The notes: generated by a model not told the origin, from the letters alone. A DNA stretch of 30,047 nt from Candidatus Aenigmatarchaeota archaeon (GCA_046760225.1 JBHIDR010000006.1:1-30047), one strand, 5' to 3'; shown: positions 4,872-28,948, counted from the first letter of the stretch. A program made the numbers and translations.

Positions 4872-6008
4872 ATGGTTGACAGAGAAAGGATAGTAGAACT
4901 GACAAGAAAGCTGGTTCAGGTAAACAGCAGCAACCCGCCTGGAAATGAAAAGGTTGTTGTTGATATTCTTGCAGAAGAGCTCAAGAAACTAGGGCTGGAA
5001 GTAAGGCTGCTTGAGGTAGCCCATGAAAGACCCAACCTCCTTGCAACATGGCGCGGTGGTGAAGGAAAGAAGCTGATAATCCATAGCCATACAGACACGA
5101 TTCCTGCTGGTGACGGATGGGAGCACAATCCTTTTGGGGGAGAAGTAGAGAACGGCAAGATATATGGAAGGGGGGCTGCTGACATGAAGGGCTCCTTGGC
5201 TGCAATGGTCTGCGCTATTGAGCAGCTGAAAAAAGAAGGATGGGAGCCGAACGGCGAGCTGATGATTCTTGCATGCTGCAATGAGGAGATGGGAGACAGG
5301 GAAGAAATAGGAATGAAGCATGTTGCTGACAAGATCACAGGTGACCTTATAGTGATGGCTGATACCAGCGACTTCAACATAATTGTTGCTGAAAAGGGCA
5401 TGCTCTGGATGGAGTTCATAGCAAAGGGAAAGCAGGCGCATGGCTCAATGCCATGGCTCGGGGTGAATGCAATAGAGATGCTGGGGAGGTTCTTGATGGA
5501 GCTGAAGAAGCTGGAATTTGATGTTGAGCATCCGCTTCTTGGCAAGTCAACACTTTCCATAAATATGCTGTCAGGCGGGGTCAAGACAAATGCTGTGCCA
5601 GGAAAAGCAAGGTCAACTGTTGACATAAGGCTTGTGCCTGGTGAGGACAAGGACAAGGTAAAGGAAAGGATAGCTGAGATAATAAGGAGGATGAAGGAGA
5701 AGGACAAGGAAGTTGATATAGAGATGAAGGAGATAGTATACTATGACCCTGTTGAGACATCACCTGACCAGGCATTTGTTGCGCAGCTCAAGGAAACAGT
5801 GGAGAGAGTGCTTGGCAAGGAAGTAAAGGTCATGGGCGAGCATGGTGCAACAGGCGCAGGCATATTCATCAGCCACGGTATTCCTGCTGTTGTGTGCGGG
5901 CCAGGAAAGCCAGAGGTTGCGCATGCAAGGGACGAGTACATAGAAATAGACGACCTTGTGAAGGCATGCGAGATATACGTAGACTTTGCAAAGAAGTTCC
6001 TTGGATGA
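4872..6008 (+). CDS. M20-family metallopeptidase/deacylase (ArgE/DapE-like)
   Basis: HSHTDT, YGRGAADMKG, NEE, AHGSMPWLGVNAI and AHARDEY motifs. Confidence 0.9.
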   Translation: MVDRERIVELTRKLVQVNSSNPPGNEKVVVDILAEELKKLGLEVRLLEVAHERPNLLATWRGGEGKKLIIHSHTDTIPAGDGWEHNPFGGEVENGKIYGRGAADMKGSLAAMVCAIEQLKKEGWEPNGELMILACCNEEMGDREEIGMKHVADKITGDLIVMADTSDFNIIVAEKGMLWMEFIAKGKQAHGSMPWLGVNAIEMLGRFLMELKKLEFDVEHPLLGKSTLSINMLSGGVKTNAVPGKARSTVDIRLVPGEDKDKVKERIAEIIRRMKEKDKEVDIEMKEIVYYDPVETSPDQAFVAQLKETVERVLGKEVKVMGEHGATGAGIFISHGIPAVVCGPGKPEVAHARDEYIEIDDLVKACEIYVDFAKKFLG

Positions 6009-6646: not shown

Positions 6647-6979
6647 GTGAACGAGTTCACAAAGAGAGTGCAGGATTCTGCTAGGTTCACCTCTAAATTA
6701 GACAAAAGAGGAAGAGCACTTGTTTCTGCTGATATAAGGAAATTATTGAGGCTTAGATTTGGCTCTGTGGTTCTTGTTGAGATTGGTAGTTCTAGCTTTA
6801 GTACTAAGATAGATGATAGAGGAAGGTTTTCTGTTCCTACTAGGATAAGGAATGGCCGGGATAGTGTAGTAGTCAACATACGAGCCTGTGGAGCTTGTGA
6901 CGCGGGTGCAAATCCCGCTCCCGGCCCCATTGAAACTTTTAGAAAAAGTTTCATCAAAAACAGGAGGTGTAAAAAATGA
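6647..6979 (+). CDS. Tandem AbrB/SpoVT (MraZ-like) DNA-binding protein whose 3' part contains tRNA-His
   Basis: Two repeats, FTSKLDKRGRALVSADIRKLL and FSTKIDDRGRFSVPTRIR, resembling the D-x-x-G-R-x-x-x-P-x-x-x-R AbrB/MraZ pattern. GTG start at 6647 or 6668. Confidence 0.65.
   Translation: MNEFTKRVQDSARFTSKLDKRGRALVSADIRKLLRLRFGSVVLVEIGSSSFSTKIDDRGRFSVPTRIRNGRDSVVVNIRACGACDAGANPAPGPIETFRKSFIKNRRCKK
6854..6929 (+). tRNA. tRNA-His(GTG), intronless, with encoded G-1 and CCA
   Basis: G-1, acceptor GCCGGGA/TCCCGGC, C73, CCA; anticodon arm CGAGC-CTGTGGA-GCTTG; T arm GCGGG-TGCAAAT-CCCGC. Confidence 0.95.
6931..6960. repeat. Perfect 10-bp hairpin plus TCAAAAA tail directly after tRNA-His
   Basis: TGAAACTTTT-AGA-AAAAGTTTCA-TCAAAAA; resembles tRNA-Arg intron 4. 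Confidence 0.6.
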
Positions 6980-11937: not shown

Positions 11938-13758
11938 ATGGAAATGGTTAGAAAAGAAATACCAAAAAAGATAGTCCCAGACACGTCTGTTCTAGTCAGC
12001 GGTAGGCTCAGCAGGCTCATAGAGGACGAGAAGATAAAGGGAGCAGAAATAATCATACCAAAGATAGTTATAGAGGAGCTGCAGGCCCAGGCATCGAGGG
12101 GCAGAGAGACAGGTTTTGAGGGGCTGGAGGAAATAAAGAAGATCAAGGAGATGTCAAAAAAGTGGAAAATAAAAATTACTTTCTTCGGCGAGAGGCCGAG
12201 CTTTGATGACATTGCGCTTGCAAAGAGCGGAAGGCTGGATGCGCTCATACAGGATGTTGCAAAGAGCCAGAAGGCAGTTCTTGTTACTTCTGACCTGCCA
12301 CAGGCAATGGTTGCTGAGGCAGAAGGAATAAAGGTAAAGTATTATGAGGCCTATGAGAAGGCAGAGAGGATGAAAATAGAGGACTTTCTGGACAAGAAAA
12401 CAATGTCCGTGCACCTCAAGGAAGGCGCGCTGCCCTATGCAAAAAGGGGCAGGCCCGGCAAAATCAAGCTCATTATTATCGGCAAGGAGAAGCTGGGCAA
12501 GAAGGAGATGGAGGTAATGATAAGGGAGATAATGGAGGCTGCAAGGTATGAAGAAGGAGGATTTGTGGAATTTGACAGGAGAGGAGCATCTGTTATACAG
12601 CTGAAGAACATGAGAATAGCTATTACAAGGCCTCCTTTTTCTGATGCCCTGGAAATCACGGTTGTAAGGCCGATAGTAAAGCTCAGACTTGATGACTACA
12701 GGCTGTCTGCAAAGCTGAAGGAAAGGCTGGAGAAGAAGGCAGAGGGAATACTTCTTGCTGGCCCGCCGGGCTCTGGAAAAAGCACAATGGCTGCATCACT
12801 TGCAGAGTTCTACATGCAGAAGGGCAAGGTTGTGAAGACAATGGAATCGCCAAGGGACCTGCAGGTGCCAAAGGAAGTGACGCAGTACTCTCCCCTGGAA
12901 GGCAGCTTTGCCAAGACATCTGATATCCTGCTCCTGGTAAGGCCTGATTACACAATATTCGATGAGATAAGGAGGACAAGGGACTTCGGGATATTTGCTG
13001 ACATGAGGCTTGCAGGGGTAGGCATGATAGGTGTTGTGCATGCAAGTGATACAGTGGACGCGGTGCAGAGGTTCATAGGAAGGGTTGAACTGGGAATAAT
13101 ACCTCATGTTGTTGACACTGTGCTGTTCATCAAGGACGGGGCTGTTGAAAGGGTTTATAGTCTTAGCATGACTGTGAGGGTCCCTCAGGGAATGACAGAG
13201 GCTGACCTGGCGAGACCCATAGTTGAGGTAAGGGACTTTGAGACAGGGAAGCTGGAATATGAGATATATACATATGGCGAGCAGACAGTCGTGATACCTG
13301 CAAAGGAGGAGAAAGCAAGGGGAGTGGAAAAGCTGGCTGCCCAGAGGATAAAGGAAGAGATATACAGGTATGACAGGCATGCCCAGGTAAGTTTTGTCTC
13401 ACCTGAGAAAGCGGTTGTAAGGGTAAGGAACGAGGTCGTGCCAAAGATCATAGGAAAGGAAGGAACGATGGTGAAGGCGCTGGAAGAAAGATTAGGAATA
13501 TCAATAGACATAGAGCCCATGGTTGAGAGCCTGGGCAAGGAAATAAGGTTTAAGATGGGAGAGAAAGGAGCATCCCTGGTGCTCTCATTCAAGAAAAAGT
13601 TCGCAGGAGAAAGCGCGAACATTTATGTTGATGACGAATACCTGTTTTCTGCAACAATCGGAAGGAAAGGCATGGTAAAGGTAACAAGGGGCTCTGACCT
13701 GGGCAAGAAGATAATCAGGGCACTTTCTTCTGGAAGAAGAATAAGGGTCTTTATTTAA
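11938..13758 (+). CDS. PIN domain + ATPase + KH protein (PINA / MJ1533 family)
   Basis: VPDTS PIN motif, GPPGSGKST Walker [35 protein letters not shown]. Confidence 0.92.
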
Positions 13759-13784
13759 AAACTTCTGTGCGAAGATTTAATTAT

Positions 13785-13956
13785 GCTCCAGTAGCTCAGC
13801 TTGGATTGCTGTTTAGGCCCAAAAAGAGCACCTGAAGGCATGTGCCTGGTGAACCTCCTATCCTAGCCGGAAGAAAGCAGGGGGTCGAGGGTTCGAAGGA
13901 CCTTTTTGGAAAAAAGCTCCACCAAAAACGGTCTGAAACTCCCTCCTGGAGCACCA
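13785..13956 (+). tRNA. tRNA-Arg(CCT) with four introns: 13807-13824, 13835-13853, 13861-13875, 13898-13939
   Basis: Removing the four BHB-like segments gives a 78-nt cloverleaf with A20 and CCA: GCTCCAGTAGCTCAGCTTGGATAGAGCACCTGCCTCCTAAGCAGGGGGTCGAGGGTTCGAATCCCTCCTGGAGCACCA. TATA-like TTATTTAAAA at 13751-13760. Confidence 0.88.
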
Positions 13957-13984
13957 TTTTATATCAGGAAAACAAGTGATTGAT

Positions 13985-14482
13985 ATGGCAAAAAGGAAGA
14001 AGAAATGGGTAAGGGGCTATCACCTTTTCCTTATAGGCATTCTGGTATTGCTGGTGCTTGTGTATGCTTCGTTATCTGTGAAACCGCTTTTTGATACTTC
14101 ACAGTATGTTGAGGCGGATGTCCTTGATATCGTGGACAGCACAATAATACTGGGCCATGGGTGCACTGCAATAATTGCTGAGACATCACCTGAAAGGGCA
14201 TATTCAATAGCACTCGGGCTTGAAGGAAGGATAGACATGAGGCCGAACACGCATGACATATTTGCGCAGACACTCAAGACCTTCAACATCTCACTGGATT
14301 CTGTCACATTAGATGCCTTTAATGGGGACTTCTATACAGCAAGCATGATAATGTGGACTCCTGAAAAGATGCTGAAGCTGGATTCAAAGCCCTCTGATGC
14401 AATTGCTGTTGCATTGAGAACATTGACACCGATTTACATAAACAAGACGCTTCTATCAGAAAGAGGAGAGGATATCTGCTAA
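13985..14482 (+). CDS. Bifunctional nuclease (BFN/DUF151) family protein with N-terminal membrane anchor
   Basis: AYSIALGLEG..RPNTHD...FYTA...LDSKPSDAIAVALR; hydrophobic N-terminal helix; alternative GTG start 13976. Confidence 0.8.
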   Translation: MAKRKKKWVRGYHLFLIGILVLLVLVYASLSVKPLFDTSQYVEADVLDIVDSTIILGHGCTAIIAETSPERAYSIALGLEGRIDMRPNTHDIFAQTLKTFNISLDSVTLDAFNGDFYTASMIMWTPEKMLKLDSKPSDAIAVALRTLTPIYINKTLLSERGEDIC

Positions 14483-28322: not shown

Positions 28323-28663
28323 CTTTTACACCTCCTTGATTTTTTGGAGCCCTGAGAGGGACTTGAACCCCCAGCCTGCTGCTTACAAGGCAGCTGCTCT
28401 GCCATTGAGCTATCAGGGCACAATAATTCGATAGCGCTAGGTCTTCCTCTACCATTTGAAATCTTGATAGGGACACCACACGAATTGCCTTTCAACCGCG
28501 CATATGCATATCGAGAGAATGACAGCTTCCTCAAATTTGGGCATCTTTCTAAAACAAGTTTTAAAAGCCTCTTGCTTACAAACTTCCTGAAGTGCACGCA
28601 AGAAACATCAGGTGAAAGTTTTGATATATCAGCATAGCTAGAAACAATTAGTCCGCTTATCAC
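28319..28663 (-). CDS. DUF1699-like protein whose 3' part contains tRNA-Thr
   Basis: IVSSYADISKLSPDVSCVHFRKFVSKRLLKLVLERCPNLRKLSFS resembles DUF1699 (VVSS..I..L....VH.....CP....I), recalled rather than searched; GGTGA RBS before the GTG. Confidence 0.55.
   Translation of the reverse strand: MISGLIVSSYADISKLSPDVSCVHFRKFVSKRLLKLVLERCPNLRKLSFSRYAYARLKGNSCGVPIKISNGRGRPSAIELLCPDSSMAEQLPCKQQAGGSSPSQGSKKSRRCKR
28345..28419 (-). tRNA. tRNA-Thr(TGT), intronless, with encoded CCA
   Basis: GCCCTGATAGCTCAATGGCAGAGCAGCTGCCTTGTAAGCAGCAGGCTGGGGGTTCAAGTCCCTCTCAGGGCTCCA folds into a 75-nt cloverleaf. Confidence 0.96.
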
Positions 28664-28787: not shown

Positions 28788-28948
28788 AGCCCCGTGGTCT
28801 AGTGGCCAAGAATCCTTTGGAGGATTGGTAAGATGACAGGCTTTGGTGCGCTAAAGCTCTGAGCGAAAGCTGTGAGGATACCTGTTGACGGAGGAGGGCG
28901 TATAGTTAATCTATTGCCCGCCGATTTCGAATCCTCCCGGGGCTACCA
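28788..28948 (+). tRNA. tRNA-Gln(TTG) with three introns: 28811-28831, 28847-28879, 28895-28925
   Basis: A1-U72 acceptor AGCCCCG/CGGGGCT, A73, CCA; spliced anticodon arm ACAGG-CTTTGGA-CCTGT; T arm GGAGG-TTCGAAT-CCTCC. Confidence 0.88.

What the first reader, a model, noticed from the sequence alone, without database searches (positions are those of the whole stretch)
13785..13956. tRNA-Arg(CCT) interrupted by four introns
Seen: introns at 20a/21 (18 nt, TTGG-AT|T...CCAA-AA|A), 30/31 (19 nt, CACC-TG|A...GGTG-AA|C), 37/38 (15 nt, relaxed, CTCC/GAAG) and 59/60 (42 nt, TTCG-AA|G...TGAA-AC|T). Introns make up 94 of 172 nt, and the exon holding the anticodon is only 7 nt. Established: BHB cleavage falls after the second bulge base, and applying that rule gives a canonical tRNA. 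To my knowledge three introns per tRNA (Thermoproteales) is the usual reported maximum. Overlapping motifs imply ordered splicing, with 30/31 probably before 37/38.
Basis: partly seen in the sequence, partly recalled or inferred. Interest (0 to 1): 0.85.

Follow-up and report, generated by a model that had tools for sequence, protein, structure and literature searches.

The report
Four-intron arginine tRNA gene, DPANN archaeon
This is a real arginine tRNA gene of a tiny hydrothermal-vent archaeon, cut into five pieces by four short enzyme-spliced introns; it is an extreme case of a known archaeal habit, in a genome where most tRNA genes are interrupted in this way.

Summary
Confirmed. Window 13785-13956 (+) is a tRNA-Arg(CCT) gene with four inserts (18, 19, 15 and 42 nt; 94 of 172 nt) at 20a/21, 30/31, 37/38 and 59/60. 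ARAGORN and Rfam miss the locus, but ARAGORN calls the in-silico spliced 78-nt product tRNA-Arg(cct).

A finder I wrote recovers the same four introns as its only zero-penalty solution. Alignments to ten uninterrupted or less interrupted orthologs, three of them syntenic, show four insert blocks at exactly these sites.

Introns 1, 2 and 4 have full bulge-helix-bulge motifs. Intron 3 is relaxed: its one mismatch lies at C34, the base that separates CCT from TCT. Intron 4 is one of six 93-100 % identical copies in five tRNA genes.

The MAG is Aenigmatarchaeota-like by EndA homologs. I solved 39 tRNA genes with 74 introns; seven have four or more, up to six in tRNA-Phe. A same-genus relative has 0-1 per gene. 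AGG is 56 % of arginine codons, so the gene must work. A two-gene, Nanoarchaeum-like EndA and RtcB are present.

No RNA data exist, so splicing and its order are inferred. Four is above the peer-reviewed "up to three", but a 2026 preprint reports five in Asgard archaea.

The parts
13750..13761 (+). A/T-rich box about 30 nt upstream of the tRNA 5' end; putative archaeal TATA/BRE promoter. It overlaps the stop codon of the upstream ORF.
   Evidence: Read directly from the sequence. A similar A/T box lies at a similar distance before the syntenic G001 gene (L036). Inferred, not tested.
13785..13806 (+). Exon 1: acceptor 5' strand, U8, A9, D-stem 5' strand and D-loop up to 20a.
   Evidence: Conserved in orthologs (A2; A4). 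Pairs 7/7 with 13946-13952.
13807..13824 (+). Intron 1 (18 nt) at 20a/21 in the D-loop. Central helix is TTGG/CCAA, inner helix 3 bp. The D-stem is the outer helix, across a 3x3 loop.
   Evidence: central 4/4. The helix appears in the MFE of the precursor, with mean pair probability 0.69. An intron sits at the same site in G002 and G005 and in L064 and L065, there ending in CCAAAA.
13825..13834 (+). Exon 2 (10 nt): A21, D-stem 3' strand, 26, and 27-30.
13835..13853 (+). Intron 2 (19 nt) at 30/31. Central helix is CACC/GGTG, inner hairpin 4 bp, outer helix 3 bp.
   Evidence: Pair probability is 0.70-0.99. A similar 18-nt intron with a compensatory stem change sits at 30/31 of this genome's tRNA-Arg(TCT). 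Single 30/31 introns with the same TG|A...AA|C junctions occur in metagenome loci L069-L074.
13854..13860 (+). Exon 3 (7 nt): positions 31-37, including anticodon CCT.
13861..13875 (+). Intron 3 (15 nt) at the canonical 37/38 site, with a relaxed motif. CTCC/GAAG makes 3 of 4 pairs, and the mismatch is C34 opposite A. The junction can slide by one A.
   Evidence: GAAG would pair perfectly with the CTTC of a TCT anticodon loop. The 37/38 introns of TCT genes in relatives end in the same way (L024).
13876..13897 (+). Exon 4 (22 nt): 38, anticodon-stem 3' strand, variable loop, T-stem 5' strand, T-loop up to 59.
13898..13939 (+). Intron 4 (42 nt) at 59/60 in the T-loop, a strict hBHBh' motif. Central helix is TTCG/TGAA, inner helix 4 bp, and the 5-bp T-stem is the outer helix. 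It is one of a six-copy intron family.
   Evidence: Copies lie at 59/60 of the Glu(TTC), Leu(CAA), Gly(GCC) and Pro(CGG) genes and at 37/38 of Pro(CGG). Contigs of four DNA runs break here, where depth is high.
13940..13956 (+). Exon 5 (17 nt): T60, T-stem 3' strand, acceptor 3' strand, A73, and an encoded CCA.
13957..13960 (+). T-run directly after CCA; likely transcription stop.
   Evidence: Read from the sequence. The same TTTTAT follows the G001 ortholog. Inferred.

Best explanation
Window 13785-13956 is the functional gene for tRNA-Arg(CCU) of a small DPANN archaeon, Aenigmatarchaeota-like by its EndA homologs.

The likely pathway is as follows. The gene is transcribed as a precursor of about 172 nt. 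The archaeal splicing endonuclease cuts it at four bulge-helix-bulge sites; here that enzyme is a two-gene, Nanoarchaeum-like alpha/beta EndA. RtcB then joins the five exons into a 78-nt tRNA that already carries CCA.

Introns 1, 2 and 4 present canonical motifs in the primary transcript. Intron 3 sits at the canonical 37/38 site with a relaxed motif. It probably needs intron 2 removed first, so that the anticodon stem can form.

The four introns have different histories. The D-loop intron is shared with other genera of the family. The 30/31 and 37/38 introns resemble those of the Arg(UCU) paralog. The T-loop intron is a recently copied element, present nearly unchanged in five tRNA genes.

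Shown here: sequence anatomy, homology, the motifs, and the presence of the enzymes. Inferred: transcription, cleavage, ligation and their order.
For: (1) ARAGORN calls the spliced 78-nt product tRNA-Arg(cct) with a perfect cloverleaf. It finds nothing in the unspliced locus, and ARAGORN and Rfam miss the locus in the window scan.

(2) My SPLITS-like finder returns these four introns as the single zero-penalty solution. On the reversed genome it gives 0 solutions at penalty 0 or 1, and 8 at penalty 2.

(3) Motif-free evidence from alignment A2. Seven tRNA-Arg(CCT) genes of the same order align with four gap blocks at exactly these sites. Five of them are intron-free and two carry only a 59/60 intron. 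The G019 gene is identical to the spliced product from position 8 to 50.

(4) Alignment A4. The orthologs carry 0 introns (G001, same genus), 1 (G002) and 2 (G005). Their flanking genes match the window's.

(5) Motifs. Central helices are 4/4 for I1, I2 and I4, each with flanking helices. The I1 and I2 helices appear in the precursor MFE with pair probability about 0.7.

(6) I4 is one of six copies at 93-100 % identity. The identity starts exactly at the predicted 5' splice site.

(7) 33 of 69 predicted introns in this genome end in AA, against a genome AA frequency of 0.09. The finder does not use this feature.

(8) The gene is needed. AGG makes up 6817 of 12083 arginine codons in long open frames, and I found no other CCT anticodon arm.

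(9) The machinery is present: two adjacent EndA genes and RtcB.

(10) The DNA is reproducible. Contigs from four DNA runs of one study cover 13600-13925 and 13909-14150 with no differences.
Against: There is no RNA evidence. No RNA run holds the locus, so transcription, cleavage sites, ligation and order are untested.

Intron 3 lacks a canonical motif. It has 3 of 4 central pairs and a 1-bp inner helix. Its central helix has predicted probability 0.00-0.01 in every intermediate, and intron 4's has 0.03-0.09.

The precursor as a whole folds only modestly better than shuffles: z = -1.82, and 11 of 200 shuffles fold at least as well.

The EndA alpha subunit has Ala where M. jannaschii has its catalytic Lys. 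This holds for the window's alpha and all nine alpha homologs I aligned, and for the window's beta-like paralog.

The MAG is 83 % complete, so an intact second copy cannot be excluded.

A three-intron reading as tRNA-Thr(GGT) with one stem mismatch exists.
Confidence: 0.88

Rival explanations
1. The locus is a decaying pseudogene. The four inserts are junk that is never removed, and AGG is read by another tRNA.
For: There is no RNA evidence. Intron 3's motif is imperfect. The MAG is only 83 % complete.
Against: All five exons are intact and colinear with orthologs. All 21 cloverleaf stem pairs of the spliced product form. Three inserts sit in canonical BHB motifs. AGG is 56 % of arginine codons, and the only other candidate AGR decoder, tRNA-Arg(TCT), also carries four introns. 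No other CCT anticodon arm was found. The locus is syntenic with the single G001 gene.
Confidence: 0.05
2. The gene has three introns and encodes tRNA-Thr(GGT). In this parse, the first reader's intron 2 is really the anticodon arm.
For: My finder lists this parse, with introns of 27, 24 and 42 nt, at penalty 1 because of a G-G mismatch in the anticodon stem.
Against: Its exons are not colinear with any ortholog. All ten orthologs aligned read CCT and align across E2, E3 and E4. Discriminator A73 and the D-arm match the Arg genes of the relatives, whereas the window's own tRNA-Thr(TGT) has T73. The four-intron parse has no penalty.
Confidence: 0.01
3. The contig is an assembly chimera. It would have been joined inside the six-copy intron 4, so that the 5' and 3' parts belong to different tRNA genes.
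For: Logan contigs of all four DNA runs break inside 13886-13946, where depth rises 10- to 25-fold. Their loose ends lead into other tRNA 3' ends.
Against: The sequence downstream of I4 pairs 5/5 with the T-stem strand upstream of it and 7/7 with the acceptor strand. The downstream gene is the same as the one behind the G001 ortholog. A chimera would in any case leave introns 1-3 untouched. Those lie on single contigs with 0 differences in four runs.
Confidence: 0.03
4. The gene is real, but intron 3 is not an ordinary EndA substrate. Either it is removed at other junctions or by a relaxed recognition mode, or the order of splicing differs from 30/31 before 37/38.
For: Intron 3 has 3 of 4 central pairs and a 1-bp inner helix, with central-helix probability 0.00-0.01 in all states. 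In the MFE of the last intermediate, the 3' site lies in a 3-nt loop strand next to the anticodon stem, but the 5' site lies at a single bulged A37. The junction can slide by one A.
Against: The site is the canonical 37/38. The single mismatch is explained by the T34-to-C34 difference between the TCT and CCT genes. Per PMC5829648 (passages read), EndAs with specific loop inserts cut relaxed motifs.
Confidence: 0.15

Closest known systems
Multiple-intron tRNA genes of Thermoproteales, for example the three-intron pre-tRNA-Glu(UUC) of Pyrobaculum calidifontis (passages of PMC4390854, and PMC8450103)
   Same: Short BHB introns lie at canonical and non-canonical sites, including the D-arm, 30/31-type sites and the T-loop 59/60. 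Closely spaced introns imply stepwise removal. The introns fall into families.
   Different: This gene has four introns, where those texts give a maximum of three. The host is a DPANN archaeon with a genome under 1 Mb, not a crenarchaeon. By my census the genome averages 1.9 introns per gene, against the 1.54 quoted for P. calidifontis.
[quoted passage not shown]
   Same: Most tRNA genes are interrupted, at about 2 introns per gene. Many D-arm introns are missed by standard tools. The preprint reports up to five introns in one gene. The inserts sit at BHB motifs.
   Different: The superphylum is different; the preprint's main text never mentions DPANN (0 occurrences). The preprint found no general route of copying between tRNA genes, whereas here six near-identical copies of one intron sit in five genes. 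My census gives six introns in tRNA-Phe.
Nanoarchaeum equitans heterotetrameric (alpha-beta)2 splicing endonuclease (PDB 3IEY)
   Same: The best solved match of the window genome's catalytic EndA is 3IEY chain A, at E = 4e-35. It shares an insert before the catalytic His. A second, adjacent paralog lacks that loop and the His.
   Different: The position of the catalytic Lys is Ala in this clade. Assembly of the two subunits was not tested. N. equitans uses the enzyme on split tRNAs, whereas here it would act on cis-introns.
Nuclear tRNA genes of the red alga Cyanidioschyzon merolae (PMC3728597, passages)
   Same: They carry ectopic and multiple BHB-type introns in the D-arm, at 37/38 and in the T-loop. 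RT-PCR showed ordered removal.
   Different: They are eukaryotic and have at most three introns per gene. Some of those genes are permuted; none is permuted here.
tRNA intron transposition in Thermoproteales
   Same: Near-identical introns lie at the same position in non-homologous tRNA genes of one genome.
   Different: I did not check that paper. Here one copy has also moved to a different site: 37/38 of Pro(CGG).

Membership tests
Archaeal BHB (EndA-spliced) pre-tRNA introns | [quoted passage not shown] | tested here: met
   I1 TTGG/CCAA, I2 CACC/GGTG and I4 TTCG/TGAA (one G-U) all make 4 of 4 pairs.
Archaeal BHB (EndA-spliced) pre-tRNA introns | The same central helix, for intron 3 | tested here: inconclusive
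   CTCC/GAAG makes 3 of 4 pairs, with C34 opposite A. Predicted pair probability is 0.00-0.01. This falls in the relaxed class only.
Archaeal BHB (EndA-spliced) pre-tRNA introns | There are two 3-nt bulges, and cutting after the second bulge base yields a canonical tRNA | tested here: met
   Applying the rule at all four sites gives a 78-nt product that ARAGORN calls tRNA-Arg(cct). The junctions equal the gap edges in A2 and A4.
Archaeal BHB (EndA-spliced) pre-tRNA introns | At least one flanking helix (h or h') of 2 bp or more | tested here: met
   Inner/outer helices are 3/1 bp for I1, 4/3 for I2 and 4/5 for I4. I3 has a 1-bp inner helix, and its outer helix is the anticodon stem, which can form only after I2 is removed.
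Archaeal BHB (EndA-spliced) pre-tRNA introns | The genome encodes a splicing endonuclease and an RNA ligase | tested here: met
   There are two PF01974/PF02778 genes on contig C2. RtcB (PF01139) lies on C35 with E = 1.4e-149.
Archaeal BHB (EndA-spliced) pre-tRNA introns | The introns are actually excised from RNA | not testable with these tools
   No RNA run holds the locus. Read laying had DNA contigs only.
tRNA-Arg(CCU) | Cloverleaf with a CCU anticodon, and orthology to uninterrupted tRNA-Arg(CCT) genes | tested here: met
   The locus is syntenic with the G001, G002 and G005 genes.
tRNA-Arg(CCU) | Arginine identity elements A20 and C35, and a purine at position 73 (this list is recalled, not taken from a call) | tested here: met
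   The spliced product has A20, C35, U36 and A73. The definition itself rests on memory.
(alpha-beta)2 EndA of the N. equitans type | Two separate genes, each with the N- and C-terminal EndA domains. One has the catalytic His and the other lacks it | tested here: met
   The 176-aa protein has Tyr and His. The 163-aa paralog (46 % identical) lacks the loop and the His.
(alpha-beta)2 EndA of the N. equitans type | A complete Tyr-His-Lys catalytic triad in alpha | tested here: not met
   The column aligned with Lys of M. jannaschii (1A79) and N. equitans (3IEY) is Ala in the window's alpha, in its nine aligned alpha homologs and in the window's beta-like paralog, the eleventh row. The meaning is unknown.
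(alpha-beta)2 EndA of the N. equitans type | Heterotetramer assembly | not tested
   No complex prediction or assay was run.
Copied ('transposed') tRNA intron families | Near-identical introns in non-homologous tRNA genes of one genome | tested here: met
   I4 has six copies at 93-100 % identity. I2 resembles the 30/31 intron of Arg(TCT). I1 and I3 have no copy in the genome.

The most novel reading that the evidence does not exclude
This genome records a very recent, species-level burst of tRNA intron gain by copy-and-paste of BHB introns between tRNA genes. It has pushed single genes to four, five and, in tRNA-Phe, six introns. Six would be above any per-gene count I found in print.

A same-genus relative keeps the same, syntenic genes with 0-1 introns. 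The pair of genomes would therefore make the unsolved question of how archaeal tRNA introns arrive directly testable.
Probability: 0.55. Interest if true: 0.7.

Novelty: new member of a known kind. Interest (0 to 1): 0.5.

Why it matters
Standard tRNA finders miss this gene and about half of this genome's tRNA set. Rfam finds 17 over its cut-off and ARAGORN makes 21 calls, against the 39 genes solved here. Such MAGs therefore look tRNA-poor when they are not.

The gene decodes AGG, the commonest arginine codon of the organism, yet it needs eight precise cuts and four ligations to work. That shows how far a reduced-genome archaeon can load its splicing system.

The contrast with a same-genus relative that has 0-1 introns per gene, together with six near-identical copies of one intron, gives a clean natural experiment on intron gain. 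The 2026 Asgard preprint calls that question open.

Tried and rejected
RNA evidence. The look-up of sequencing runs listed no RNA holder. Read laying could use only DNA contigs of four runs from one study. It showed no joints, that is, no intron-less allele.

Three-intron Thr(GGT) parse. Rejected on ortholog alignments.

Looser finder settings. With penalty 3 and up to six introns of up to 160 nt, the finder produced many spurious parses around real 3' ends, for example 1307 at the His gene. I therefore used penalty budgets, iterative deepening and a reversed-genome control.

Template-guided alignment. A motif-free dynamic-programming alignment with cheap introns has a noise floor near score 80-85. 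It also mis-aligned the focal gene against the diverged G001 template, giving 7 false gaps. It worked for Phe, Arg(TCT), Ile(TAT), Ser(TGA) and Gln(TTG).

MAFFT pairwise alignments. Those for the Phe and Ile genes merge small exons and do not resolve all the inserts.

This used wrong minus-strand coordinates and is void; one search replaces it.

Calls that produced nothing. Searches timed out, and one search failed on a file-type slip.

Supplementary Data 4 of PMC11291895. It could not be reached because the stored archive is cut. That table may list Asgard genes with four or more introns.

Tools not available. tRNAscan-SE and SPLITS were not on hand.

Complex prediction for the two EndA subunits. 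Not run: a textbook pair, so little would be learned.

Unsolved genes. The tRNA-Glu(CTC) gene on C32 and a Tyr gene were not solved at zero penalty. Ser(TGA) is ambiguous, with 5 introns and 31 alternatives by the finder against 4 by template alignment. Pro(GGG) on C72 is probably under-spliced.

Full report
THE OBSERVATION. It has five exons of 22, 10, 7, 22 and 17 nt, separated by inserts of 18, 19, 15 and 42 nt, so inserts make up 94 of 172 nt. ARAGORN and the Rfam tRNA model each find two other tRNA genes in the window (His 6855-6929 and Thr 28345-28419) and nothing at this locus. When the exons are joined by coordinates inside a script, ARAGORN calls a 78-nt tRNA-Arg(cct). It has 7-, 4-, 5- and 5-bp stems, a TTCGAAT T-loop, A73 and an encoded CCA. 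With its intron option, ARAGORN still finds nothing in the unspliced locus.

IS IT MORE THAN CHANCE? With four free cuts one can force many sequences into a cloverleaf, so I tested this directly. I wrote a SPLITS-like finder that walks leftwards from every CCA. It may jump over any stretch of 10-130 nt that has a 4/4 central helix and at least three flanking pairs, or over any stretch at 37/38. It counts departures from the cloverleaf as penalties. With loose settings it invents many parses, for example 1307 at the His gene. A rival parse with three introns and a GGT anticodon costs one stem mismatch. On the reversed, non-complemented genome the same finder gives 8 solutions, all at penalty 2 with four or five long introns, and none at penalty 0 or 1. 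On the real genome it gives 29 zero-penalty solutions.

MOTIF-FREE CONFIRMATION. Searching the 42 genomes of the same order with the first exon (up to 2 mismatches) hit 10 genomes, G000 included. Seven of the matched genes are tRNA-Arg(CCT). Five of those are uninterrupted and two carry only a T-loop intron. The G019 gene is identical to the spliced product from position 8 to 50, which spans three of the four junctions.

In the window's own family the gene is syntenic; the upstream and downstream coding sequence matches. It carries no intron in G001 (same genus), one D-loop intron at 20a/21 in G002, and two introns (20a/21 and 59/60) in G005 (A4). This rules out the Thr(GGT) parse. It also fixes the boundaries without using any splice motif. 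Only the I3 junction can slide, by one A.

Each site is also attested singly elsewhere:
- 20a/21 introns ending in CCAAAA, in two genomes of other lineages (L064, L065).
- A lone 30/31 intron with the same TG|A...AA|C junctions, in six metagenome contigs (L069-L074).
- A lone T-loop intron in two more contigs (L066, L067).

None of these carries all four introns.

THE SPLICE MOTIFS.
- I1: TTGG/CCAA, with a 3-bp inner helix. The D-stem lies beyond a 3x3 loop.
- I2: CACC/GGTG, with a 4-bp inner hairpin and a 3-bp outer helix.
- I4: TTCG/TGAA, with a 4-bp inner helix and the 5-bp T-stem as outer helix, a strict hBHBh' motif.
- I3: at the canonical 37/38 site, only CTCC/GAAG, with C34 opposite A and a 1-bp inner helix.

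GAAG would pair perfectly with the CTTC of a TCT anticodon loop, and the 37/38 introns of TCT genes in relatives end in the same way. The one mismatch is therefore exactly the base that distinguishes CCT from TCT. This suggests that the intron came from, or is shared with, the Arg(TCT) lineage. The genome's own Arg(TCT) gene has an 18-nt intron at 30/31 that resembles I2. It has the same ends, and its stem changes from AGGC/GCCT to AGGT/ACCT, a compensatory change.

In the fold of the whole precursor the I1 and I2 helices are part of the MFE, with mean pair probability about 0.7. The I4 helix has 0.03-0.09 and the I3 helix 0.00-0.01 in every intermediate. Once I1, I2 and I4 are removed, the MFE is a clean cloverleaf with an extended anticodon arm. 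In it the 3' site lies in a 3-nt strand next to the anticodon stem.

It remains an inference.

INTRON 4 IS A COPIED ELEMENT. The first DNA search already showed five more places in the same genome matching the T-arm plus I4. BLAST and a flank display show six copies of 42-43 nt. Five lie at 59/60 of the Arg(CCT), Glu(TTC), Leu(CAA), Gly(GCC) and Pro(CGG) genes, at 95-100 % identity. One lies at 37/38 of Pro(CGG), at 93-97 % over 30 nt and with changed stem bases. The identity starts exactly at the predicted 5' splice site. Only the last base before the 3' site varies.

Three further intron families exist:
- 54-56 nt, in Leu(TAG), Thr(CGT) and Lys(TTT).
- 35 nt, in Leu(CAG), Gln(CTG) and the C20 gene.
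- 23 nt at 8/9, in both Ile genes.

Logan contigs of four DNA runs (one study, hydrothermal vent) break inside I4 at 10- to 25-fold depth, as expected for a repeat. They cover 13600-13925 and 13909-14150 without any difference and show no intron-less allele. The join across I4 is vouched for by 12 base pairs between its two sides and by synteny.

THE GENOME AROUND IT. The MAG has 851 kb in 83 contigs, is 83 % complete and has 44 % G+C. Its EndA's nearest named homologs are labelled Candidatus Aenigmatarchaeota. Rfam finds 17 tRNAs over its cut-off and ARAGORN, several with wrong anticodons.

Combining the strict finder with a relaxed one (3/4 central pairs allowed), I solved 39 tRNA genes. Thirty-seven are at zero penalty; the two His(GTG) genes carry penalties of 1 and 2. 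ARAGORN calls every spliced product with the expected anticodon. Together they hold 74 introns, or 1.9 per gene:

| Introns per gene | Genes |
|---|---|
| 0 | 8 |
| 1 | 11 |
| 2 | 8 |
| 3 | 5 |
| 4 | 4 (Arg CCT, Arg TCT, Met CAT, Lys CTT) |
| 5 | 2 (Ile TAT; Ser TGA, which is uncertain) |
| 6 | 1 (Phe GAA, C2:21139-21358) |

Of the first 69 predicted introns, 33 end in AA, against a genome AA frequency of 0.09. The finder does not use this feature.

The same-genus genome G001 is a natural control. Rfam finds 42 tRNAs there. Of the 39 I solved, 23 have no intron and 16 have one. A template-guided alignment that uses no motif, with the G001 mature sequences as templates, gave these results:
- Phe: six inserts, 74 of 77 bases identical.
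- Ile(TAT): five inserts.
- Arg(TCT): four inserts.
- Ser(TGA): four inserts.
- Gln(TTG): three inserts.

The other genera of the family give only 7-16 Rfam hits, family f2 gives 19-20, and two genomes of family f3 give 42-43. This suggests that heavy interruption is widespread but patchy in the order.

MACHINERY AND NEED. Two EndA genes lie about 0.5 kb apart on C2, roughly 1.4 kb downstream of the Phe gene. Both have the N- and C-terminal EndA domains. The 176-aa protein matches the catalytic subunit of the N. equitans heterotetramer best (3IEY_A, E = 4e-35). It shares an insert before the catalytic His. The 163-aa paralog is 46 % identical, lacks that loop and the His, and looks like a structural beta subunit.

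One oddity stands out. The column of the catalytic Lys of M. jannaschii and N. equitans is Ala in the window's alpha and in all nine alpha homologs I aligned, and also in the window's beta-like paralog.

The two-gene arrangement is found in families f1, f2 and f4-f8. Most f3 genomes have one gene. Among the eleven genomes where I have both figures, the single-gene f3 genomes G015 and G028 give 42-43 Rfam hits. The exceptions are G006, with one gene found and only 7 Rfam hits at 80 % completeness, and G001, with two genes and few introns. A two-gene EndA is therefore permissive at most.

RtcB is present. AGG is 6817 of 12083 arginine codons in long open frames. No other CCT anticodon arm exists in the assembly: 25 chance stem-loops were found, none with tRNA flanks. 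The only other AGR decoder, Arg(TCT), also has four introns. So the gene must be expressed and spliced.

WHAT IS KNOWN. Kanai's 2015 review (PMC4390854, passages) and the tRNAscan-SE 2.0 paper (PMC8450103, passages) both say up to three introns per archaeal tRNA gene. The second names P. calidifontis (71 introns in 46 genes) as the richest genome assessed. C. merolae nuclear genes reach three (PMC3728597, passages). Kaneta et al. 2018 (PMC5829648, passages) link loop-bearing EndAs in DPANN to more disrupted tRNA genes. They also note that incomplete tRNA sets in DPANN point to undetected disrupted genes.

Valentin-Alvarado et al. 2024 (PMC11291895, passages) report 228 introns in three Asgard genomes. 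I could not open their Supplementary Data 4. A bioRxiv preprint of October 2026 (abstract and passages) reports 2.2 inserts per gene and 'up to five in a single gene' in Asgard families. It does not mention DPANN, and it found no general route of copying between tRNA genes.

My searches for 'four introns' or 'five introns' together with tRNA and bulge-helix-bulge or archaea, and for DPANN or Aenigmarchaeota tRNA introns, found no report of a tRNA gene with four or more introns outside that preprint. Earlier AI notes of this scan (unchecked by me) list a four-intron Asn gene in another DPANN genome and a five-intron Trp gene in a Bathyarchaeia genome. The scan has therefore met this before, on other DNA.

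VERDICT. This is a genuine member of a known kind, BHB-intron-bearing archaeal tRNA genes, at the extreme end of that kind. Four introns exceeds the peer-reviewed maximum I could read, but not the 2026 preprint's five. In this genome it is not even the record. The more interesting points are at genome level: about 1.9 introns per gene in a DPANN archaeon, up to six in one gene, near-identical intron copies, and a same-genus relative almost free of them. All splicing claims remain in silico.

Noticed in passing
window 28788-28948 (+): A second hidden tRNA gene lies in the window: tRNA-Gln(TTG) with three introns (28811-28831, 28847-28879, 28895-28925). ARAGORN and Rfam both miss it. The spliced product is called by ARAGORN and matches the G001 ortholog at 69 of 76 bases.
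   Followed up: yes
G000 contig C2:21139-21358 (outside the window; L076): tRNA-Phe(GAA) appears to carry six introns (20, 17, 16, 29, 31 and 30 nt) with exons as short as 6 nt. The motif-free alignment to the uninterrupted G001 gene is 74 of 77 identical. It lies about 1.4 kb upstream of the two EndA genes.
   Followed up: partly
G000 contig C4:24635-24830 (-) (outside the window; L077): There is a tRNA-Ile with anticodon TAT carrying five introns, and G001 has a TAT gene too. A UAU isoleucine tRNA, rather than the usual modified CAU one, is unusual in archaea. As I recall, it is known from Nanoarchaeum and Korarchaeum.
   Followed up: partly
G000 contig C35:1646-1677 (outside the window; L075): The RtcB ligase reading frame is broken. 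A 32-nt stretch with a full BHB motif (TAGG-AT|T...CCTA-AA|A, 5-bp inner helix) sits at the break. Removing it shifts the frame so that the conserved GIGYDINCGV stretch is read through.
   Followed up: partly
G000 contig C2:22790-24355 (L013 1297-1788 and 2332-2862): In the EndA alpha subunit, and in all nine homologs aligned, the residue aligned with the catalytic Lys of the M. jannaschii and N. equitans enzymes is Ala, within a conserved NIRANMLWA motif. It is not clear what replaces the Lys.
   Followed up: partly
window 6855-6929 (+): The tRNA-His(GTG) here is atypical, with a TGCAAAT T-loop and no GG in the D-loop (penalty 2 in my finder). A second His(GTG) gene with one 37-nt T-loop intron lies on C1:51776-51888. 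One of the two may be a specialised or decaying copy.
   Followed up: no
window 5627-5644 (+): An 18-nt stretch is 94 % identical to intron 2 (blastn-short E = 0.02). It is probably chance.
   Followed up: no
whole genome G000: About half of the predicted tRNA introns (33 of 69) end in AA just before the 3' splice site, and 36 of 69 begin with A. This may be a lineage-specific preference of the endonuclease.
   Followed up: partly
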